A stretch of 64,000 nucleotides of DNA, from the IMG/VR virus record IMGVR_UViG_3300043410_001256, positions 1-64,000 of that record; one strand, written 5' to 3'. Below are positions 39,782 to 64,000 of the stretch, piece after piece. Origin of the DNA: a virus. Each line of letters opens with the position of its first letter. Position 1 is the stretch's first letter. A model generated the notes under the pieces. It saw only the letters and a program-made list of their open reading frames with translations, was not told the origin of the DNA and made no database searches. A program made the position numbers and the translations under genes.

Positions 39782-40657
39782 ATGAGCACAGAACAGACAG
39801 CAGTGCCACCAGCAAATAACCCACTGAGCAAGTTTTTCCGCACCCCGGCAATTTATATTGGTTTGCCCAGTGGAGGACGCTGGTGGAAAGACGGAGCACT
39901 GGAATTACCCGAAAACGGGGAATTACCTGTGTATCCTATGACCAATCGTGATGAAATCATGATCAGAACTCCAGATGCGCTGATCAACGGACAAGGCGTA
40001 ACCGATGTAATACAAAGCTGTATGCCCAACATCAAAGACGCTTGGAAAATGCCCAGTGTAGACGTAGACACTTGTCTGATAGCCATGCGTATTGCCAGCT
40101 ACGGGCACAAAATGGATTTTACAAACAAATGTCCGCATTGCAAAGCAGAACACGACTATGCAGTGGATCTACGTGTGATGTTGGATTCTATCAAATGCCC
40201 CGACTACGATAAAGATCTAGACATCGGCGTTATTAAAATCAAGTTCCGCCCACAGATGTACTGGGAAACCAACTTCACAAACAAAACCAGTTTTGAAGTG
40301 CGTAAACTGCAAATGGCTCTGGAAGCATTGCCCGGTGACGAGGAAGATGAAGAAAAGACCAAAGCACTAACAGATCAGCTGATGCGTGTTAACGAAATCA
40401 ATCACTCTGTTATGGCCAGCAGTATTGAATACATTGAAATTGTTGAAAGTGGTGAAAGAGTTGGAGATCAAAACTTTATTAAAGATTTCTTAAACGAAGT
40501 TGATCGTAAAATATTTGATCAGATACAAAATGAAATCACCAAGCTACAAGAACAAGGTGCAGTTAAGCCAGTTAAAGTAAACTGTAACTCTTGCAATGAA
40601 CCGCTGGACATTGCTATCCTATTTGATTATTCAAATTTTTTCGTAGTCGGCTCTTGA
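39782..40657 (+). CDS. gp26: Baseplate hub assembly chaperone (gp26-like)
   Basis: LPSGG, MT..DE, D.D..LIAMRIAS.G, two CxxC motifs (CPHC, CNSC) and a terminal NFF. Confidence 0.8.
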   Translation: MSTEQTAVPPANNPLSKFFRTPAIYIGLPSGGRWWKDGALELPENGELPVYPMTNRDEIMIRTPDALINGQGVTDVIQSCMPNIKDAWKMPSVDVDTCLIAMRIASYGHKMDFTNKCPHCKAEHDYAVDLRVMLDSIKCPDYDKDLDIGVIKIKFRPQMYWETNFTNKTSFEVRKLQMALEALPGDEEDEEKTKALTDQLMRVNEINHSVMASSIEYIEIVESGERVGDQNFIKDFLNEVDRKIFDQIQNEITKLQEQGAVKPVKVNCNSCNEPLDIAILFDYSNFFVVGS

Positions 40658-40872
40658 CTTTAACCGACGACGAAATTGGATTGTTGCTAGAAGAATACGA
40701 CAAACAGTCAAGAGCCATACGCGAGGAAGTGATTAGATTTACCTGGTGGATGCGCGGAGGAATAGATTATGATTCCGCTATGTCCTTGGCTCACACTGAC
40801 AACGAAATCATCAGGGAAATTATTAAAGAAAATATGGAAACTACTAAGAACAGTGGTTTACCATTCTTCTAA
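40654..40872 (+). CDS. Small gp51-like chaperone, probably expressed as a -1 frameshift extension of the gp26-like gene
   Basis: WWMRGG..Y..A..L motif. TTG start without an RBS. The -1 frame is open from the slippery T TTT TTC at 40636-40642. Confidence 0.65.
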   Translation: MTLTDDEIGLLLEEYDKQSRAIREEVIRFTWWMRGGIDYDSAMSLAHTDNEIIREIIKENMETTKNSGLPFF

Positions 40873-40892
40873 TACTTTTTCTAACACTTTCA

Positions 40893-40956
40893 AGAACTGC
40901 TTCGCAGTTCTATTGATTTCGCTATCGCTCATCAATATCTTTCTTCGCTTTAGCGA
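40893..40956. other. Cluster of three adjacent inverted repeats (possible origin/priming signal or terminators)
   Basis: AGAACTGC-TTC-GCAGTTCT (40893-40911), TATTGAT...ATCAATA (40911-40937) and TCGC-TTTA-GCGA (40945-40956). Confidence 0.55.
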
Positions 40957-40959
40957 TTT

Positions 40960-41297
40960 TAAGTATCATCTAGATTAATCGGTCAGAATTCGCCCGTTGC
41001 CGGGCAAAAAACGTGCATCATCTGAGTAGCACAGTCATCTATTCTAAATGGGATTGTCGTAAGACACGGAGGCGGTTGACCTGTACCCCCTACCCAAGCT
41101 TCGCATGTCAACGGAACCCTAGTGATCCGGAATAGACCCAAATCCTATAAGCTGTGGTTGCATCTTTTTCGCAGAGCCACGACCATTTGAACCTTAAGTT
41201 AGTTCTTTTCTTGCAACGCACCAGTATCTAGCGGCACAGCACTACCTGTACAACCTCAAGGTGAGTCTAGCAGCCTAGACCAAACAATGTTGCTATG
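40960..41297 (-). ncRNA. Putative large structured ncRNA of unknown class
   Basis: Region with no credible ORF and many stems that pair best on the minus strand (G-U pairs, GCAA tetraloop). Two loop-to-distal pairings are possible. Boundaries approximate. Confidence 0.6.
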
Positions 41298-41813
41298 TTA
41301 TGAACACAGAGTACGAACTACTTTAACGTGTTCGTTGTGTTCCCAAAATTTATCGTAATCGTAAATGAGCCAGGAGCCGTGTTTGTCTGATTGGTAGAGA
41401 AGATGTGGTATCGATAGATCCCAATGTGTGCCATGTTGTACCGCTACAAACATGCCTTTGCGGTTGAACTTCATGAACAGAATATTGAAATCACCTTGGT
41501 CGGCTACATCCAATGTTTGCTCAATCCAGTCATCCAGCTGTTTGCAGGAGCCTTGAAAGAGTTGATGAAATGGAAAGTCTTTGTAACTTTTGCACTCAGC
41601 ATTGAACTTTGGGAAACTCTGTCCAGGAATAATATCCCCTTTGAAGCTTCTTATTTGTCCCTCGTGCAGTATCTCTTTGCGATTTGCATTTGACCCGCCA
41701 ATATAAGCGCCAGAATGCGGAACGCGGATAAAGCGTTCTCCATAGGTAACAGTAAGGTGATCTGCCACCTTGCGTTCCCATGCATTTCCTTTTGCTTTTT
41801 GTGGACTGGTCAT
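41298..41813 (-). CDS. Hjc-type PD-(D/E)xK Holliday junction resolvase
   Basis: KGNAWER...R.P.SGA...GDII...F.AECK motif order. Confidence 0.85.
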   Translation of the reverse strand: MTSPQKAKGNAWERKVADHLTVTYGERFIRVPHSGAYIGGSNANRKEILHEGQIRSFKGDIIPGQSFPKFNAECKSYKDFPFHQLFQGSCKQLDDWIEQTLDVADQGDFNILFMKFNRKGMFVAVQHGTHWDLSIPHLLYQSDKHGSWLIYDYDKFWEHNEHVKVVRTLCS

Positions 41814-41865: not shown

Positions 41866-42798
41866 CTATTTTAGAACGGTTTCTTCTGTAAATTGCCTTG
41901 AAAAGTGTGTTTGATTGTTGTGTGTAGAACAGTGCCTTTTGCAAACTTCATGCGGATTTGTGGTCCAGCTGTCTGCGAGTCCATGATAATTTGGTGCTTG
42001 TATCCATTGTTTTAGTTGATCGTCTAGTGTAAAAATTCTGTTGCCTATGAAACAGCAGGGCAGTACTTGCCCCGTTGCTGACACGTATAAACTTTTTTCG
42101 TTTACAGCATGACAGGAAATTGGGCCATCGGGCACGATTGGAACATAGCCTTTGGGCGGAGATAAAAACTCCACAGGACGATCTTCAAATCTATTGCTAA
42201 CCTTGGCACGAAAATGTGTAAAGCCCATCTTTCTAGCATGTTCACGGCAATGGTCAACATGATGCTGATTATGCTCAAACACCAGCATGTCCCAGTGTGC
42301 TCTCCCGCCTGACATGATAAATGTTTCTGCATTCAGCATCACACGATGCCACATAACACCTCGGCGATAGATGTCATTGGTACTAGCCATGCCGTCGATG
42401 CTGAACACACAATAATCTAGATTGCAATTAAACAGTTCGCCTAGTTCAATCCAAAAACGTGTGTCACGTAATCCACCATTGGTATTCATGCCCAGGGTGA
42501 TGTTGGGATTAACTTCTCTAAACCAACGCAGTATAGGTATACATTCTTTAGCTGCCGCCGGATCGCCAAAGTCTCCACAGGCAAACACCTTATCCAGCTG
42601 GCGTACAAAATCTTCTGAAAACAATTCTTTGCAACGTGCCAGTGTTAAGTCATGATCATCACTGTAGCCTAGACTAGGATCCATTCTACTGCATTGAGGA
42701 CATGATGCTTGACACCTGGTGGTTAACTCAAGATGCAGTACACGTATGCCAGCAGGATCAAACGGTGTCAACATCTGTTCCATAGCTGGTAAATCCAT
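41866..42798 (-). CDS. Radical SAM protein with C-terminal Twitch/SPASM-like Cys cluster
   Basis: ELTTRCQASCPQC (CxxxCxxC), CGDFGDP, TNG, SIDG, and C-terminal C...G.VLPCC...C...C. The start may be one of the downstream Met codons. Confidence 0.9.
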   Translation of the reverse strand: MDLPAMEQMLTPFDPAGIRVLHLELTTRCQASCPQCSRMDPSLGYSDDHDLTLARCKELFSEDFVRQLDKVFACGDFGDPAAAKECIPILRWFREVNPNITLGMNTNGGLRDTRFWIELGELFNCNLDYCVFSIDGMASTNDIYRRGVMWHRVMLNAETFIMSGGRAHWDMLVFEHNQHHVDHCREHARKMGFTHFRAKVSNRFEDRPVEFLSPPKGYVPIVPDGPISCHAVNEKSLYVSATGQVLPCCFIGNRIFTLDDQLKQWIQAPNYHGLADSWTTNPHEVCKRHCSTHNNQTHFSRQFTEETVLK

Positions 42799-58269: not shown

Positions 58270-58281
58270 TGAAGTGATAGA

Positions 58282-61200
58282 ATGTCTATTAAAAGTATAA
58301 ATCTTTTACCTGAAGTATTCCGCAGTGAAACTAACAAAAAGTTTCTTGCAGCCACCGTTGATCAATTGATCAGCGAAGCAGACACCACTGTACGAGTTGA
58401 TTCTTATATTGGTCGTCAAGATGCACCAGCATGGAGCACTGGCGACACTTATATCAAAGAACCAAACACAGATAGGAAAAACTATCAACTTGAATCTTCG
58501 GTACTAGTAGATGCTGGTCAAGGCCAGACTGACTTTTACAATGGCTATCTAGATCTATTACAACAAATTTCATACTATGGTGGTTTAACAAATGACCATA
58601 GCAGATTGTTCAGCAGTGACAGTTACACATTTGATGGTTGTTTTGACATTGACAAGTTTGTTAACTTTACACAATACCTATGGCTACCAAATGGCCCGCC
58701 AGAAGTTACTGTAACCGCGAGCAATCTAGATGTTTCGTCTCTGTACAATGTCAGCAGATCACTTGCTGTACAAGGTTATCAGTTTACTGAATTTGGTAAC
58801 GATAAAAACCCTATCATCACATTGATCAAAGGACAAACATATCGTATCAAGGTTAACCAGCCAGGTCATCCATTTTGGATCCAAACAAATCTAGGTGCCA
58901 CTGGAACCTACAGCGAAAGTGCAACCGAACTAAGTCGCCGTGTGCTCGGCGTAAACAACAATGGTATTGATGTTGGCGAAATTGAATTCAGCGTACCAGC
59001 TGGCAATGCACAGGATACTTTCTTAACAGCAAAAACAGCAGCCACAGTTGATTTTGCCACAACTAAAAAATACAGCCAAATTCAAGGCGCAATGACTAAC
59101 CAGCTTGCTCTCATTGGAGGCATTGATGGAGTTAGTCAAGGTTTGAATGGCAAGACTCTAATCTTTTTAACTGATGACAACAACAATGATGCCTGGACAG
59201 ATCCTGGTAACTTTGACGTAGGTACAGAAAACGGTCAGCCGGGTACATTTGATTACGACGGCGAAGGATTTGAAGCAGGTGATACCGTTGCAGGTGTAAA
59301 CCGCAAGGGAATTTTTAGAATTCGTTTGGTTTCTGTTGCAGGCGGTCGTCAAATTGTTAAACTGGATCCTATCCAACAAGTTGCATTGGGAGAAAAAGTC
59401 TACGTCAAAGCAGGTACAAAAAATTCCAACGTTGAATATCTATTGAATCAATCAAATCAATATGAAGCAGTTCCTCCTCTTACTGCTTCGTTGGATACCT
59501 TGTACTATCAAGACGGGTCAGACAACAAGTTTGCTGGTATTATTAGACTGGTGAATCCAGGCACAGAAACAATTAACATCGACGAAGATATCGTTGGTAA
59601 AGTAAACTATACAAGTCCTAACCAGGTGGTGTTTACCAACGGTCTGCATGTTAGATTTGATGATACTGCAATTCCAAGTTCTTATGCTAACAACAATTAC
59701 ATTGTTGAAGGTGTAGGCGATGCAATTAAATTGATCAGCATTGGTAATTTCAGTTCTCCTGAAAACTATGCACAACTCAGCAATCTTGCAACTCCTGACT
59801 ATATTACGATTAATCGCGCCAGCCGCGATCTAAATGCTTGGTCCAGAAGCAACCGTTGGTTCCATATTGAAACAATTGAATCAGCAGCCAAGTACAGAGA
59901 AGAGCCAGCATTGCTGGACATATCGGGTATACAAAGAGCCAAGCGTCCAATCATTGAATTTGATCCAGACATTTATTTGTTTGACTATGGTCGCACAGCC
60001 AAAAGCCCAGTTGATATAATTGACTTTACTATCACTGATGCTTTCAAAGAAGTTGAAGGACAAACGAACTATGTAATTCGTATGCCCAACGGCGTTACAC
60101 GTGCTCTTACTGCTGGTACACGAATTATTTTTGCTGCCGACGAAGATCCAGAAGTAAACAACAAGATCTACAGAGTTGATTTTATTACAACCAGCACTGG
60201 AACACAGATTCACTTGGTGAGTCAAAACACCAGCACGTTGCCAACATACACAGTAAATTCTGCTGTAATAACATCAAATCTAAGCTACAACTTTATACCA
60301 AGTGTAACATTCTCTTCTCCACTGCCAGGCATTGGCACAGAAGTTGCTACAGGTAATGTAGTTCTAAAAACATCCGGTGTTGATTCAATTGGCGTAAACA
60401 ATTCAGGCATCAGCTATGTTGCTGATCCTTATATTTCTATCAGCAGTGATTACACCACCGCAGTTGAAACCAATATTGTATACCAGCCTTACAAGCACGT
60501 TGACTACATTAGACTTGTTGCACGTGGTACTGGCTACACAGCAACCAATCCAAATGTACACATCAGTAATCCTAATACCTACTATGCAGTAATTTCAAAT
60601 GCCACAGTAGGACAGTTTGGTTTAACTTTTGAAGCCAATGGCATTACAACCAGTCAATGGCTAGGCATACAACCAGGCGCTCAGGTAATTGGTAACGGTA
60701 TCATTGGCGGAACAATTATTACAGCAGTAGATCAAACTGCAAACTTGATCACAATCAATGCACCTGCTATTTCAGCTAACGTTGATTCAGTGCCACCTAT
60801 TTCAGGTATTACCACAGTGGCCATTGGTGACCAGTGGGTGTTCAAGACCAATGTAACTGCTGGCACTTATGCAGTTGTACAATCTACTGTACAAAATGCC
60901 AAGACTGTTACAGTTGATGATACCAGCATGATTGATGTTGGTATGATTGTCAGCGGCGGCGAACGACCAATATCTATATCCAGTATAAGAATTGATGTTG
61001 TGCCAACTCGTGTAATTACTTCATCACTGCACAATCTCAATGACGGAGACTTGATCTTTATTCGCGATATTGTTGGTACAGTTGAATTAAACTTTTCACG
61101 TTACTATGTAAAACGAATCAGCGAAACTGCAATTGATTTGTACACAGACTCTAGTTTTTCTACTGCCGCACAACAAGACTCACGTAACTTTACAGACTAT

Positions 61201-64000
61201 GTAAGCGGTGGTTTGATCACTGCCTACACCATTGACTATGCTCAAACAAAAGTAGCAAAGGTGTTAAGTTCTACACAGTTTGTAACAGACAAGAATGTAA
61301 CAATTCGTGCTGGCGCAAAACTGGTGTTTGCAGGTGTTCCTGCTACTGCTATTGCACGTAGCGATGGTAACTCCATTTATAATATTTCCGTTACCAATGC
61401 CGGCTCCGGATATGCATCTGCACCAACTGTTACCATTGAAGACACACAAGGTAACCAGGCCACTGCAACTGCTGTGGTAAATGATAATCTTATTAGCTAT
61501 GTTGAAATTGTAAACCCAGGCGCTGGTTACAAAGTTGGTGAAAATGTACAAGCTGAAATTGTAAGTTATGTAGAACTGAAAACATCGGCTACATCAACTT
61601 ACGGAACTGATACTTTGTATTTTGCAGAAGGCACAGACCTTAGTGCAATTAAACCAGGTTGGTTGGTATTCTTGGTTTCTACTATTAACGGCAATGAGTT
61701 GTATACAGATTTTGGATTGACTCCGTATGCGGAAACAGATTACACTGGACCAAATCCGGATGACTACATTTCGTTTATGGATATTGCACTAACACGTGCA
61801 GATATTCGTACAGTTGTTACTGTGGACACCGATCGTTTGGTATTAGATGGGCCTATTAGAAGCTTAGACTCAGATGGCGAAGTAATTGACTTGCCATTGG
61901 ATTCCAAGATTTTTGTAACTTGCCAAAGCAGATTCTTCACAGAAGACGGTTATGGTTCTAGTGCTAGAGTTCCAGGAAATACAAAATCTGGATTCCTTAG
62001 TGTTGCAGAAATCGTAACTGGCAATGAAATGGTTCTAGACACCGTTGCAGGTGTACAACCTGGCATGGTAGTTAAAGATGTATCTGGATACATTTCCTAT
62101 ACCGTTACTGTATTAAACGTTGATGCTTATACTAGAAGAATTAAACTTTCCGGTGACGTTACTGTTCCAGCACTAACACCAGTTTATTTCAACAACAATG
62201 CAGACATAACAGCAACCATTGCATCATCTGAAATTGACTACATTGACATTACAAATTCAGGTCGTGGATATGTACATGCTCCACAAATAACTATTGAATC
62301 ATTGTATCCTGTTGTTACCAAGGTGGCAGCATGTACTGGCAGCACAAATTTAATCACATACCTTGATCCAACAACTCTAGCACCAATTCAGTACCAGTCT
62401 GGTAAAGTACTAAAAGTTGACACCTACACTGGTGTAGTTGTTGGTGCAAAAGTAACAAGTACCTATGATAACTTTGGTGTTGGTTTAACCACTGGTGCAA
62501 ATACACCTAAAGTTGTAGCATTGGTTCTAGAACAAACAGCGTCTGCGGTGTTTGAAAAGAGAATTGTATTAGATATACTACAACCTGAGTTCAGTGACAT
62601 CGAAGTAACATTTACCTATGCCGCCGAAGCAGTGGCATTAATTGATCAGCAGAACTCTGCAATAGATGTCGAAGACACCACACCAGAAACATATGATGTT
62701 GGCGATACTGTGGTTGTTAATATTCCTACTAACGCTAGACAAACTTCGACTAATATTGTTACATACAATCAATATTATTTTACAGGCACAGAATGGTTGC
62801 CTGCACAACAAAAATCAGACACCAATCAAGAACCACTGTTTGATGCGTTTGATAAAAATGGATACAGTGCCGGCGATGGTACTACATACCCTGGTACTAA
62901 ATTCACAGGTACCAAGATCTTTGGATATCGCATAGGCTCGGGTAAAGCAGACACTGTGCTGAATTTCTCACTGACCTATAAGAATTTCCAAAACGTTGGT
63001 GATATTGAATTCTCTAACTACTTCCAGACCGATACGTTTAGTTACTTGTTAGGGTTTGGCGAAGTTTCAATTCCAATTAAGAACTTTGTTCTTAAACAAA
63101 GCACCAGCGACAGTTATCGTTTAAGAAACATCTGGACTCCAGTTACTGAAAAATCAAAACAGTATCAGGTTATCACACATCAATATGATGGTACAACCAA
63201 CTATTTTGAAGTTGACATTGAACCAGAAACCAGCAACACAATACCTTACTTAAAAGTATTTGTTGGAACTACCCTGCTGGATTCAACACAGTATGTGCTT
63301 ACACAGTTTGGCGGTCGCAAGGCTATTGTTATTAACACATCTAACCTTGACACCAACAAACAGGTTATTATTAAAATATACAGCAAGTCACAGTCTACAA
63401 TTGGACATTATGAAACACCAGTTAACTTTGATTTGAATCCATTGAATAATAACTTTGAGTATTTGACACTGGGACAAATTAGAAATCACCTGGTTACCAA
63501 AACACAAAATCACTATGGTTTAGTTGGCCCAACACTGGGAAATAATAACCTACGCAACATTTCTAATAAGAGCTGGCAAGGCTCAATTCTACAACACGCA
63601 AGTCCTGTGGCCATGGCAGCTTTGTTTATGACAGACAAAGATTTGAATGTTGTTCAGGCAATCGAATTTGCACAAAAAGAATATTCTAAGTTCAAGAATC
63701 GTTTCTTGGACATGGCAGCTAAGTCACAGATTGACCCATACGATATTCCTGCATCGGTTGATCGTGTATTAGAAAGCATCATGGTAGGTAAGAGCTCAAT
63801 GAGCCCGTGGTACGACAGCGACATGGTTCCATACGGATCAAAGTTCCGTAAAACCACTCGCATACCAGTGTTGAATGTAAGACAAAAAACATATCTGATT
63901 CCAGATACTTTTGATCCTACTGTGCTATCTCGTCGTGCGGTATTGGTATACTTACAAGACACAACCACTAGAACTGTTCAACAGTTAATAAGAGGAATTG
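58282..64000 (+). CDS. Giant baseplate protein (gp7-like), 3'-truncated, >1900 aa; absent from the ORF track
   Basis: ATG at 58282 (MSIKSINLLPEVFRSETNKKFL...). No stop codon was seen where the frame was read, and it is open at the window end. Contains N.G.GY...P.V.I repeats and an H.L.DGD.I.I...G..ELN..YYV module. Confidence 0.8.
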   Translation, partial: MSIKSINLLPEVFRSETNKKFLAATVDQLISEADTTVRVDSYIGRQDAPAWSTGDTYIKEPNTDRKNYQLESSVLVDAGQGQTDFYNGYLDLLQQISYYGGLTNDHSRLFSSDSYTFDGCFDIDKFVNFTQYLWLPNGPPEVTVTASNLDVSSLYNVSRSLAVQGYQFTEFGNDKNPIITLIKGQTYRIKVNQPGHPFWIQTNLGATGTYSESATELSRRVLGVNNNGIDVGEIEFSVPAGNAQDTFLTAKTAATVDFATTKKYSQIQGAMTNQLALIGGIDGVSQGLNGKTLIFLTDDNNNDAWTDPGNFDVGTENGQPGTFDYDGEGFEAGDTVAGVNRKGIFRIRLVSVAGGRQIVKLDPIQQVALGEKVYVKAGTKNSNVEYLLNQSNQYEAVPPLTASLDTLYYQDGSDNKFAGIIRLVNPGTETINIDEDIVGKVNYTSPNQVVFTNGLHVRFDDTAIPSSYANNNYIVEGVGDAIKLISIGNFSSPENYAQLSNLATPDYITINRASRDLNAWSRSNRWFHIETIESAAKYREEPALLDISGIQRAKRPIIEFDPDIYLFDYGRTAKSPVDIIDFTITDAFKEVEGQTNYVIRMPNGVTRALTAGTRIIFAADEDPEVNNKIYRVDFITTSTGTQIHLVSQNTSTLPTYTVNSAVITSNLSYNFIPSVTFSSPLPGIGTEVATGNVVLKTSGVDSIGVNNSGISYVADPYISISSDYTTAVETNIVYQPYKHVDYIRLVARGTGYTATNPNVHISNPNTYYAVISNATVGQFGLTFEANGITTSQWLGIQPGAQVIGNGIIGGTIITAVDQTANLITINAPAISANVDSVPPISGITTVAIGDQWVFKTNVTAGTYAVVQSTVQNAKTVTVDDTSMIDVGMIVSGGERPISISSIRIDVVPTRVITSSLHNLNDGDLIFIRDIVGTVELNFSRYYVKRISETAIDLYTDSSFSTAAQQDSRNFTDYVSGGLITAYTIDYAQTKVAKVLSSTQFVTDKNVTIRAGAKLVFAGVPATAIARSDGNSIYNISVTNAGSGYASAPTVTIEDTQGNQATATAVVNDNLISYVEIVNPGAGYKVGENVQAEIVSYVELKTSATSTYGTDTLYFAEGTDLSAIKPGWLVFLVSTINGNELYTDFGLTPYAETDYTGPNPDDYISFMDIALTRADIRTVVTVDTDRLVLDGPIRSLDSDGEVIDLPLDSKIFVTCQSRFFTEDGYGSSARVPGNTKSGFLSVAEIVTGNEMVLDTVAGVQPGMVVKDVSGYISYTVTVLNVDAYTRRIKLSGDVTVPALTPVYFNNNADITATIASSEIDYIDITNSGRGYVHAPQITIESLYPVVTKVAACTGSTNLITYLDPTTLAPIQYQSGKVLKVDTYTGVVVGAKVTSTYDNFGVGLTTGANTPKVVALVLEQTASAVFEKRIVLDILQPEFSDIEVTFTYAAEAVALIDQQNSAIDVEDTTPETYDVGDTVVVNIPTNARQTSTNIVTYNQYYFTGTEWLPAQQKSDTNQEPLFDAFDKNGYSAGDGTTYPGTKFTGTKIFGYRIGSGKADTVLNFSLTYKNFQNVGDIEFSNYFQTDTFSYLLGFGEVSIPIKNFVLKQSTSDSYRLRNIWTPVTEKSKQYQVITHQYDGTTNYFEVDIEPETSNTIPYLKVFVGTTLLDSTQYVLTQFGGRKAIVINTSNLDTNKQVIIKIYSKSQSTIGHYETPVNFDLNPLNNNFEYLTLGQIRNHLVTKTQNHYGLVGPTLGNNNLRNISNKSWQGSILQHASPVAMAALFMTDKDLNVVQAIEFAQKEYSKFKNRFLDMAAKSQIDPYDIPASVDRVLESIMVGKSSMSPWYDSDMVPYGSKFRKTTRIPVLNVRQKTYLIPDTFDPTVLSRRAVLVYLQDTTTRTVQQLIRGI

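What the first reader, a model, noticed from the sequence alone, without database searches (positions are those of the whole stretch)
40960..41297. Putative large ncRNA with two possible pseudoknots, starting right after the Holliday-junction resolvase stop codon
Seen in sequence: this is the largest non-coding gap in the window, and the minus strand can be paired by hand into many elements (plus coordinates given). These are a G-U-rich closing stem AUUGUUUGG/UCAAAUGGU; hairpin GUCUAG-GCUG-CUAGAC (41265-41280); stem CCUUGAG/CUUAAGG (41255-41261 with 41192-41198); and GUGG...CCAC. Hairpin GAUUUGG-[GUCUAUU]-CCGGAUC (41124-41144) has a loop complementary to a distal AAUAGAU (41037-41043). Hairpin GGGGGU...GCCUCC (41068-41090) has a loop GUCAAC complementary to GUUGAC (41107-41112). 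There are also UGUC-UUAC-GACA and a GNRA hairpin UUUGCCCG-GCAA-CGGGCGAA (40989-41008). AGAUGA recurs three times (40966, 41018, 41035). Several stems need G-U pairs that exist only on the minus strand, which favours an RNA over DNA palindromes. I do not recognise tRNA, tmRNA, RNase P or group I/II intron cores. Inference: this may be an undescribed phage RNA class co-transcribed with gp47-gp46-resolvase. Options are (a) a ColE1 RNA II-like or T4-origin-like R-loop pre-primer, given the G-run GGGUAGGGGG and the hairpin cluster just downstream; (b) an RNA partner or guide for the adjacent PD-(D/E)xK nuclease; (c) a ribozyme.
Basis: partly seen in the sequence, partly recalled or inferred. Interest (0 to 1): 0.9.

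Follow-up and report, generated by a model that had tools for sequence, protein, structure and literature searches.

The report
Knotted twin-box RNA of lake phages
The gene-free stretch behind the nuclease gene of this uncultured T4-like freshwater phage encodes a real, about 335-base, triply knotted non-coding RNA. It belongs to a widespread and largely uncatalogued family that carries the same short word twice, and its job is still unknown.

Summary
Confirmed as a real structured RNA on the minus strand, about 41293 to 40960. It is conserved in 169 related loci. A 91-pair model is 78% paired against 65% in shuffles, with 687 double-change cells against 257 (0/500 shuffles reach it).

The CCUUGAG/CUUAAGG stem shows no covariation. 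Two other helices, P1 and P3, are supported instead.

There is no Rfam hit in the window. In sister loci the front domain is Rfam's orphan Polynucleobacter-1 (RF01718), followed by the same 150-nt rear domain. The window is therefore a branch with a different, uncatalogued front domain.

The rear domain carries two 24-nt modules, RUGAC-N7-AYYY-RGAUGAW. Their variable letters change together and stay identical: 132 of 134 at R, in about 26 independent changes.

I found no complementary partner, no conserved ORF and no link to nuclease residues. My best guess is a scaffold that shows two equal sites to a symmetric partner, as in TIGR and box C/D RNAs.

New here: distant copies occur in Rhodobacteraceae genomes, in three loci upstream of a small tyrosine recombinase gene.

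This scan had already met the family on other DNA (at least 75 genomes), also without finding a function.

The parts
40960..41295 (-). Whole non-coding RNA, about 335 nt. It starts 3-5 nt after the nuclease stop codon. Its last conserved letters are those of box 2.
   Evidence: nhmmer profile hits span this range in 66 full-length relatives. Conservation stops at both ends in alignments A1 and A2.
41213..41293 (-). P1, GCAAC (41293-41289) with GUUGC (41217-41213).
   Evidence: The inner three pairs show GC35/AU17, AU46/GC10 and CG48/UA6. They are also among the top mutual-information pairs.
41264..41281 (-). P2 hairpin, GGUCUAG-GCUG-CUAGACU.
   Evidence: Compensatory changes, for example CG23/GC13/GU5.
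41219..41263 (-). P3, CACC (41263-41260) with GGUG (41222-41219). It encloses the invariant UUGAG and hairpin P4 (41230-41255).
   Evidence: P3 is 100% paired and all 4 pairs change on both sides. The outer part of P4 is 98.6% paired.
41154..41180 (-). P5 hairpin, GUGG/CCAC, with inner stem UGCG/UGCA and the conserved A-rich loop AAAAAGA (41169-41163).
   Evidence: 99.6% and 98.6% paired, with GC26/UA14/AU7/CG7 at one pair.
41116..41152 (-). P6, a long hairpin whose 7-nt loop GUCUAUU (41137-41131) forms PK1.
   Evidence: 87.6% paired; 11 of 14 pairs change on both sides.
41037..41043 (-). 3' strand of PK1, AAUAGAU. It pairs with the P6 loop (41137-41131) and ties the front domain to the rear domain.
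   Evidence: 6 of 7 pairs change on both sides. Examples are L015 GCUUGUA/UACAAGU and the other branch UUAGCG/CGCUAA.
41075..41112 (-). P7, GUUGAC (41112-41107) with GUCAAC (41080-41075). Its loop holds the 5' strands of PK3 (UGGG, 41096-41093) and PK2 (GGGGG, 41090-41086).
   Evidence: 98.5% paired, with AU37/UA12/CG4 and UG24/CG14/GC14.
41068..41072 (-). 3' strand of PK2, CCUCC, pairing with GGGGG (41090-41086).
   Evidence: 99.3% paired, with GC48/AU8 and GU46/AU7/GC3.
41049..41052 (-). 3' strand of PK3, CCCA, pairing with UGGG (41096-41093).
   Evidence: In the correct register the pairs are 89-100% paired, with AU26/GC12/UA12 and GC42/AU7/GU5. The window's UGGG/CCCA is itself a compensated form of the consensus AGAG/CUCU.
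41055..41066 (-). P8, a small variable hairpin, UGUC-UUAC-GACA.
   Evidence: Pairs show UA27/CG11/AU6/GC5 and UA20/GC12/AU9/CG9.
41017..41038 (-). Module 1: AUGAC (41038-41034), a 12-nt gap, then box 1 ACUC-A-GAUGA-U (41027-41017). It is loosely closed by UGUGC/GCACG (41033-41029 with 41016-41012).
   Evidence: Box letters are invariant or co-vary with box 2. The spacing is 12-13 nt in 90 of about 141 sequences. The closing stem is weak and its position varies.
40989..41008 (-). P10 hairpin, UUUGCCCG-GCAA-CGGGCGAA, lying between the two modules.
   Evidence: 6 of 8 pairs change on both sides, for example CG19/GC18. The loop sequence is not conserved.
40965..40986 (-). Module 2: CUGAC (40986-40982), a 12-nt gap, then box 2 AUCU-A-GAUGA-U (40975-40965). 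It is probably single-stranded at the 3' end.
   Evidence: The spacing is 12 nt in 112 of about 141 sequences. There is no closing stem above chance. It varies in step with box 1.
40893..40911 (+). Terminator-like hairpin with a T-rich tail, serving the convergent plus-strand genes. It marks the far limit for the RNA's 3' end.
   Evidence: Consensus scan.
41298..41813 (-). Upstream gene, a 171-aa PD-(D/E)xK nuclease (Pfam PDDEXK_15). It is probably co-transcribed with the RNA.
   Evidence: Pfam E-value 2e-25 and PHROG 244. No promoter-like site lies between the gene and the RNA.
39782..40872 (+). Convergent neighbours: a T4 gp26/gp51-like baseplate hub gene (39782-40657) and a 72-aa ORF (40654-40872).
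   Evidence: Pfam T4_baseplate and PHROG 150. The same pair lies beyond the RNA in most related loci.

Best explanation
**What it is (shown).** The interval is the gene of a structured non-coding RNA of about 335 nt on the minus strand. It has three parts:
- A lineage-specific front domain, helices P1-P6.
- A conserved rear domain of about 150 nt. In it, the loop of hairpin P7 forms two pseudoknots (PK2, PK3) with downstream strands.
- A third pseudoknot (PK1) that ties the front domain to the rear domain.

The rear domain ends in two copies of a 24-nt module, RUGAC, 12 nt, then AYYY-RGAUGAW, separated by hairpin P10.

**How it is made (inferred).** It is transcribed as the tail of the gp47-gp46-nuclease operon and then acts as a free RNA.

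**How it works (inferred, my best guess).** The knotted core is a rigid scaffold. It presents the two identical single-stranded words to the two halves of a symmetric partner, most likely a dimeric protein. That is why a change in one word is only tolerated together with the same change in the other. The neighbouring nuclease is a neighbour, not the partner.

**My odds.** Real structured RNA of this family: about 0.95. Symmetric-partner mechanism: about 0.35.
For: **Real RNA.**
- Profile hits in 169 loci, 66 of them full length.
- A 91-pair model is 78.4% paired against 64.9% in shuffles. It has 687 double-change cells against 257 and a covariation score of 0.380, against 0.167 in shuffles and 0.08-0.11 when the partners are slid. 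None of 500 shuffles reaches it.
- PK3 pairs are 89-100% paired with three pair types.
- G-U-rich pairs fix the strand.
- No conserved ORF covers it.

**Family.**
- Sister loci have RF01718 at 82-120 bits, followed by the same rear domain. The window and its own branch have no RF01718 hit.

**Twin words.**
- Joint counts at R are AA 72, GG 60, mixed 2. At W they are UU 72, AA 54, GG 6, mixed 2.
- Each variable position shares information only with its twin: 0.9-1.1 bits, against 0.3 bits or less for any other column.
- R changes 26-28 times and W 22-23 times on the tree. In independent pairs the twin follows 10.6 of 11 times for R and 9.5 of 10 for W, and never goes the other way (p about 0.001-0.002). 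R and W vary independently of each other.
- GAUGA becomes GAUAA in both boxes of L038 and L040. G becomes C in both boxes of L057 and L066.
- The UGA-to-box spacing is fixed at 12 nt.

Against: - No partner has been identified.
- A protein partner would have to change each time the words change, about 26 times in this sample. That is demanding.
- No Nop-domain protein was found in five phage records that carry the RNA, one of them a complete 354-kb genome.
- No protein is shared between the phage loci and the Rhodobacteraceae loci that hold the RNA.
- In one branch (8 loci) the last letter differs between the two boxes, ACAUGAA against ACAUGAU, so identity is not absolute.
- Transcription, strand and RNA ends are not shown. 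The only RNA library available gave unstranded contigs of relatives.
- The window's own sequence folds no better than shuffles.
Confidence: 0.45

Rival explanations
1. **Guide or bridge-like RNA for DNA-cutting or DNA-joining enzymes.** The two equal words would pair with a shared core sequence in two DNA partners, as the two loops of an IS110 bridge RNA both read the common core. The adjacent nuclease, or in bacteria the recombinase, would do the chemistry.
For: - The RNA sits next to genes of unrelated DNA enzymes. Here it is a PD-(D/E)xK nuclease. In Rhodobacteraceae a 188-250-aa Xer-like tyrosine recombinase lies 0.4-2 kb downstream on the same strand in 3 loci. Earlier notes of this scan report a GIY-YIG nuclease in other branches; I did not test that.
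- A shared core would require identical words, and that is what is seen.
Against: - No other copy or complement of the 11-nt box exists in a complete 354-kb genome that carries the RNA, in this 95-kb record, or in the Rhodobacteraceae loci.
- The own word's complement is not enriched in the flanks of 146 loci.
- No nuclease residue tracks the word. Nucleases that are 92-94% identical sit beside different words.
- In several loci a 261-346-aa gene lies between the nuclease and the RNA.
- 2 of the 5 Rhodobacteraceae loci that have downstream sequence show no recombinase.
Confidence: 0.15
2. **Purely structural twin boxes.** The two words contact each other inside the fold, for example through like-with-like pairs (A-A, G-G, U-U). 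The identity rule would then be an internal folding constraint, and the RNA's real function lies elsewhere.
For: - Only two changes are needed per switch, which fits the high switching rate of about 26 changes.
- No third co-varying column is found in or near the RNA.
- Like-with-like exchanges are known from ribosomal RNA comparative work (my own knowledge, not checked here).
Against: - It would need a run of at least four like-with-like pairs in parallel orientation, which is rare in known RNA structures (my own knowledge).
- The invariant prefixes differ between the boxes (ACUC against AUCU).
- The distance between the boxes varies from about 49 to 85 nt.
Confidence: 0.12
3. **Cis-acting tail of the early operon.** The element would be a 3' structure that stops exonucleases, ends transcription before the convergent late genes, or primes replication through an R-loop.
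For: - It starts directly after the stop codon with no promoter-like site before it, and it lies between convergent operons.
- It keeps this position in most related loci.
Against: - About 335 nt with three pseudoknots, invariant single-stranded words and like-with-like covariation is far more than a terminator or stabiliser needs.
- The same rear domain occurs in Rhodobacteraceae genomes in a quite different gene context.
- The G-run is base-paired within the pseudoknots.
Confidence: 0.1
4. **Processing or ribozyme model.** The two equal words would be two equivalent cleavage (and perhaps joining) sites, cut by the RNA itself or by an RNase. Cutting would release the piece of about 52 nt between them, which holds hairpin P10.
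For: - Two identical sites flank a conserved hairpin.
- Complex pseudoknotted cores are typical of ribozymes (my own knowledge).
Against: - No known ribozyme family matches, even at E-values up to 10.
- Nothing explains why the cleavage sites should vary so fast.
- No read data were available to show ends.
Confidence: 0.06

Closest known systems
Polynucleobacter-1 RNA motif (Rfam RF01718; Weinberg et al. 2010, PMC2864571)
   Same: In sister phage loci this 141-nt motif starts right after the same nuclease gene, and it is followed by the same twin-box rear domain as in the window. The habitat matches (fresh water) and its function is likewise unknown.
   Different: The window's front domain does not match the model, even at E-values up to 10, and it has a different helix plan. 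The Rfam family covers only the front third of the sister RNAs. It does not include the conserved rear domain or the twin boxes.
TIGR guide RNAs and box C/D RNAs (Faure et al. 2025, PMC12045711)
   Same: Both have two short motif pairs within one RNA that vary together and stay alike. In those RNAs this is explained by binding to a symmetric protein dimer. The letters also look similar: RUGA and GAUGA recall box D (CUGA) and box C (RUGAUGA).
   Different: No Nop-domain protein was found in five records. There are no spacer-like variable guides and no array. The boxes are [Y]RGAUGA, not RUGAUGA. The RNA is ten times longer and knotted.
IS110 bridge RNA (Durrant et al. 2024, PMC11208160)
   Same: A single structured RNA with two separate sites that must agree in a short shared word, encoded next to a DNA-rearranging enzyme.
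   Different: There is no IS110-type recombinase and no complementary DNA site was found. The phage is lytic and T4-like, and the RNA sits in a fixed, conserved genome position.
Large ornate phage-associated RNAs (GOLLD, ROOL)
   Same: Large, heavily structured, phage-borne RNAs known only from comparative analysis, with no known function.
   Different: No sequence or model match. This RNA is smaller, about 335 nt. There are no neighbouring tRNA genes.

Membership tests
Polynucleobacter-1 (RF01718) | Match to the Rfam covariance model at or above 37 bits | tested here: not met
   No hit in the window at the gathering threshold or at E-values up to 10. L022, L015 and L073, of the same branch, have none either. 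Eight sister loci score 82-120 bits.
Polynucleobacter-1 (RF01718) | Belongs to the same longer RNA, that is, shares the domain that follows the motif in its carriers | tested here: met
   The rear domain after RF01718 in L002, L004 and L129 aligns with window 41114-40963. Model R1, built from both branches, has 153 positions.
Twin-box phage RNA (informal family of this scan) | Rear domain with P7, PK2, PK3 and two modules carrying the same word | tested here: met
Box C/D or TIGR-type guide RNA | Box C RUGAUGA and box D CUGA motifs forming kink-turns | tested here: inconclusive
   The letters are similar: RUGAC, 12 nt, then [Y]RGAUGA, twice. The U of box C is replaced by R, and box D is mostly RUGA. 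The kink-turn geometry cannot be tested with these tools.
Box C/D or TIGR-type guide RNA | A Nop-domain protein encoded in the same genome | tested here: not met
   PF01798 was not found in five phage records with the RNA, one of them 100% complete. The controls were positive. A very divergent Nop domain could have been missed.
IS110 bridge RNA | Loops complementary to target and donor DNA beside an IS110 recombinase | tested here: not met
   The neighbours are a PD-(D/E)xK nuclease and baseplate genes. No complementary sites were found.
tRNA, tmRNA, RNase P RNA, group I/II introns, known ribozymes and riboswitches | Match to the family model | tested here: not met
   ARAGORN found none. Rfam gave none at the gathering threshold, and only a chance Ysr49 match (13.6 bits, E 8.2) at E-values up to 10.
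ColE1 RNA II-like or T4 origin transcript | Own promoter, persistent RNA-DNA hybrid and an unwinding element | tested here: inconclusive
   No sigma-70-like site lies upstream on the minus strand, but phage promoter types are not covered by that scan. R-loop formation is not testable here.

The most novel reading that the evidence does not exclude
The twin-box RNA is the RNA subunit of an undescribed RNA-directed DNA-handling system. Unrelated enzymes would use it: PD-(D/E)xK and GIY-YIG nucleases in T4-like phages, and minimal tyrosine recombinases in Rhodobacteraceae mobile elements. The two equal words would read a shared core in two DNA partners.
Probability: 0.1. Interest if true: 0.9.

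Novelty: new variant of a known kind. Interest (0 to 1): 0.66.

Why it matters
- Large, multiply knotted RNAs with conserved single-stranded words are rare. So far each has turned out to be a ribozyme, a riboswitch, a guide or a scaffold of a machine.
As shown here, it also occurs sporadically in bacterial genomes of Rhodobacteraceae.
- The catalogued Polynucleobacter-1 motif turns out to be only an exchangeable front domain. The conserved core lies behind it and is not catalogued.
- The rule that two words must stay identical while changing fast points to a specific partner that can be looked for. Finding it would explain an orphan RNA known since 2010.

Tried and rejected
1. **Cultured phages.** A blastn search of 1.3 kb against 50,697 phage records gave no match.
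2. **Expression.** Only one metatranscriptome held related sequence, and only as unstranded contigs of relatives. These cover parts of the element (for example 41150-41298) and of the nuclease gene. That shows neither transcription, strand nor ends.
3. **Protein coding.**
   - ORFs over the element differ in strand and frame between loci.
   - A mini-ORF from the AUG of AUGAC to the UGA of box 1 is in frame in the window but not in L015 (my own reading of the sequences).
4. **Complementary partner.**
   - None in the window or the 95-kb record.
   - No enrichment in the flanks of 146 loci.
   - None in a complete 354-kb genome or in the Rhodobacteraceae loci.
5. **Nuclease co-variation.** The best alignment column explains 0.5 of 0.88 bits and lies in the variable C-terminus.
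6. **A stem closing box 2.** Not above chance.
7. **boxA-like CUCUUUA.** Rejected, because the window has CCCAUUU together with a compensating change in its pairing partner.
8. **Hammerhead core.** The letters are CAGAUGA, not CUGAUGA, and no model matches.
9. **The genome contigs pattern scan.**
   - About 130 chance hits are expected for this pattern in 596 Gb (my own estimate), and most of the 120 hits were indeed unrelated genes.
   - Only those confirmed by the profile or by model R1 were kept.
10. **Nop-domain search.** Negative.
11. **Shared neighbour proteins.** None between the bacterial loci and the phage loci.
12. **Rhodobacteraceae sample.** 150 further genomes gave no match, under the stricter filters.

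Full report
**Setting.** The window is part of a 94.9-kb IMG/VR record of an uncultured T4-like phage, estimated 27% complete. The interval lies between convergent genes:
- On the minus strand, a 171-aa PD-(D/E)xK nuclease (41298-41813; Pfam PDDEXK_15, E 2e-25) ends an operon that includes an SbcC/gp46-like gene.
- On the plus strand, a gp26/gp51-like baseplate hub gene (39782-40657) and a 72-aa ORF (40654-40872) come from the other side.
- The true gene-free stretch is 40873-41297. The 69-aa ORF at 40769-40978 has no support.
- It is not the longest stretch without long ORFs in the window. The region 58.3-63.7 kb has longer ones.

**Is there an RNA?**
- The window's own sequence gives little. 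The minus strand folds at -98.3 kcal/mol, no better than shuffles (z -0.26). The plus strand folds worse than shuffles.
- Rfam gives nothing at the gathering threshold or at E-values up to 10, and ARAGORN finds no tRNA or tmRNA.
- Comparison with relatives settles it. The nuclease protein retrieved 80 related IMG/VR loci. An iterated nhmmer profile of the gap hit 52 of them, always on the nuclease strand.
In all there were 169 profile hits, 66 of them full length.
- No ORF is conserved over the element.
- On 56 distinct full-length sequences (55-83% identical to the window), my 91-pair model does as follows:
  - 78.4% paired, against 64.9% in shuffles
  - 687 double-change cells, against 257
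  - covariation score 0.380, against 0.167 in shuffles and 0.08-0.11 with slid partners
  - 0 of 500 shuffles reach the observed values
- Many pairs are mostly G-U, which fixes the strand.

**Anatomy (window coordinates, RNA read from high to low).**

Front domain:
- P1, 41293-89 with 41217-13
- P2, hairpin 41281-64
- P3, 41263-60 with 41222-19 (100% paired, all four pairs compensated)
- P4, hairpin 41255-30
- P5, hairpin 41180-54, with the conserved loop AAAAAGA
- P6, hairpin 41152-16

Rear domain:
- P7, GUUGAC/GUCAAC (41112-07 with 41080-75)
- PK2, GGGGG/CCUCC (41090-86 with 41072-68; 99.3% paired)
- PK3, UGGG/CCCA (41096-93 with 41052-49). In the right register it is 89-100% paired with three pair types. 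The window's version is itself a compensated form of the consensus AGAG/CUCU.
- P8, hairpin 41066-55
- PK1, the P6 loop 41137-31 with 41043-37, which ties the two domains together
- Two modules separated by hairpin P10 (41008-40989)

- CCUUGAG/CUUAAGG shows no covariation. Only its invariant UUGAG/CUUAA core remains possible.

**The twin boxes.**
- Each module reads RUGAC, 12 nt, AYYY-R-GAUGA-W. Box 1 is 41027-41017 and box 2 is 40975-40965. The spacing is 12 nt in 112 of about 141 sequences for module 2, and 12-13 nt in 90 for module 1.
- The variable letters are the same in both boxes. R is AA 72, GG 60, mixed 2. W is UU 72, AA 54, GG 6, mixed 2.
- They share information only with each other.
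- On a tree built without the box columns, R changes 26-28 times and W 22-23 times. In phylogenetically independent pairs the twin follows 10.6 of 11 times (R) and 9.5 of 10 (W), and never goes the other way. R and W are independent of each other.
- Rarer changes are also shared. GAUGA becomes GAUAA in L038 and L040. G becomes C, giving ACAUGAU, in L057 and L066.
- One branch of 8 loci breaks the rule at W.
- This is like-with-like covariation, not base-pair covariation.

**Relation to what is known.**
Eight sister loci, including the nuclease's closest relatives L002 and L004, have RF01718 at 82-120 bits directly after the nuclease stop. The rear domain shared with the window follows it.
- The window, L022, L015 and L073 have no such hit.
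- So the front domain is exchangeable, the rear domain is the family's core, and the window represents a branch with an uncatalogued front domain.
- In the searchable literature only Weinberg 2010 lists the motif. It gives 'Burkholderiales, fresh water/estuary' and no known function.

**Search for a partner.**
- No complement of the boxes exists in the window or the 95-kb record.
- The complement is not enriched in the flanks of 146 loci.
- A complete 354-kb genome that carries the RNA has no further copy or complement of the 11-nt box.
- Nuclease residues do not track the word. Nucleases that are 92-94% identical sit beside different words.
- In several loci another gene separates the nuclease from the RNA.
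- This argues against a guide for the neighbouring nuclease.
- A published precedent for like-with-like covariation is the TIGR guide RNA. There, box motifs of two repeats co-vary because they bind a symmetric protein dimer (PMC12045711).
- The letters RUGA and GAUGA also recall boxes D and C. However, no Nop-domain protein was found in five carrier records.
- I therefore favour a scaffold that shows two equal sites to a symmetric partner, at modest odds. I keep four rivals open: a guide or bridge-like role, an internal box-to-box contact, a cis-acting operon tail, and processing sites.

**New observation: relatives in bacterial genomes.**
- The pattern scan of 596 Gb of bacterial genomes gave mostly chance hits, about the number expected. 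The profile and a covariance model of the rear domain (R1: 70 sequences, 153 positions) picked out the true members.
- Some lie in MAGs of Haliscomenobacter, Polynucleobacter and Methylococcales. These are likely binned phage contigs.
- Others lie in seven Rhodobacteraceae assemblies: Nereida ignava (3 copies), a Roseicyclus MAG (2 copies), Rhodovulum bhavnagarense, and others. They score 37-47 bits over the full model. Unrelated sequences with the same pattern stay below the reporting threshold.
- About 330 nt are conserved among these bacterial copies, and no Rfam family covers them.
- In three loci a 188-250-aa Xer-like tyrosine recombinase lies 0.4-2 kb downstream on the same strand.
- None of 150 further Rhodobacteraceae genomes had a match. 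No neighbouring protein is shared with the phage loci.
- The pattern is sporadic and multi-copy, as for a mobile element. The homology is distant and partly rests on the motifs used for the search, so it needs confirmation.

**Expression.**
- No sigma-70-like promoter lies upstream on the RNA strand. A terminator-like hairpin for the plus-strand genes lies at 40893-40911.
- The one metatranscriptome available holds only unstranded contigs of relatives.
- Transcription, ends and abundance therefore remain to be shown.

**Verdict.**
The reading as a large pseudoknotted phage RNA is right. The proposed functions are unsupported.
- The RNA is a new branch of a partly catalogued, functionally orphan family that this scan had already met in at least 75 other genomes.

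Noticed in passing
L211:4155-4560 (-), L215:3659-4060 (-), L219:1-287 (+), L209, L217, L220, L248: Rhodobacteraceae genomes carry a conserved element of about 330 nt with the same twin-box rear domain. The assemblies include Nereida ignava, Roseicyclus, Rhodovulum bhavnagarense, Octadecabacter and Ascidiaceihabitans. No Rfam family covers the element. Some genomes hold 2-3 copies, and none of 150 other genomes of the family had a match.
   Followed up: partly
L219:714-1466 (+), L215:1971-2537 (-), L211:1548-2114 (-): A small Xer-like tyrosine recombinase lies 0.4-2 kb downstream of the Rhodobacteraceae element on the same strand. Two of the three are 188 aa, essentially the catalytic domain alone. 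DUF3768 and unknown genes lie upstream. The arrangement looks like a mobile element.
   Followed up: partly
L268, L287, L293, L315 (one Coleofasciculaceae MAG): A different multi-copy element in one cyanobacterial MAG has ACUCAGAUGAGGAC and AUCUGGAUGAGGAC flanking a GC-rich hairpin. It does not match the rear-domain model or any Rfam family.
   Followed up: no
window 58270-63653: Over 5 kb hold no ORF of 100 aa or more, and there are several stretches of 0.7-1.1 kb without ORFs of 70 aa or more. These probably hold small early genes. The whole-window Rfam scan found nothing there.
   Followed up: no
L022:4504-5289, L015:4513-5547, L028, L019, L012, L034, L031: In several relatives an extra gene of 261-346 aa lies between the nuclease and the RNA, so the RNA keeps its place beside the baseplate genes. 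I did not identify the inserted genes.
   Followed up: no
window 41866-42798 (-): A 310-aa ORF between the gp46-like gene and the nuclease gives only a sub-threshold radical SAM match (Pfam 19.8 bits against a cut-off of 29.5; PHROG 21308, E 9e-13).
   Followed up: no
L091, L199, L133 against the window (pre-box regions): The strand just before box 1 pairs with the strand just after box 1 in the window and L109. In L091 and L199 it pairs instead with the strand just before box 2 (ACUGCGGU/ACCACAGU). The helix that frames box 1 has therefore moved between sub-branches.
   Followed up: partly
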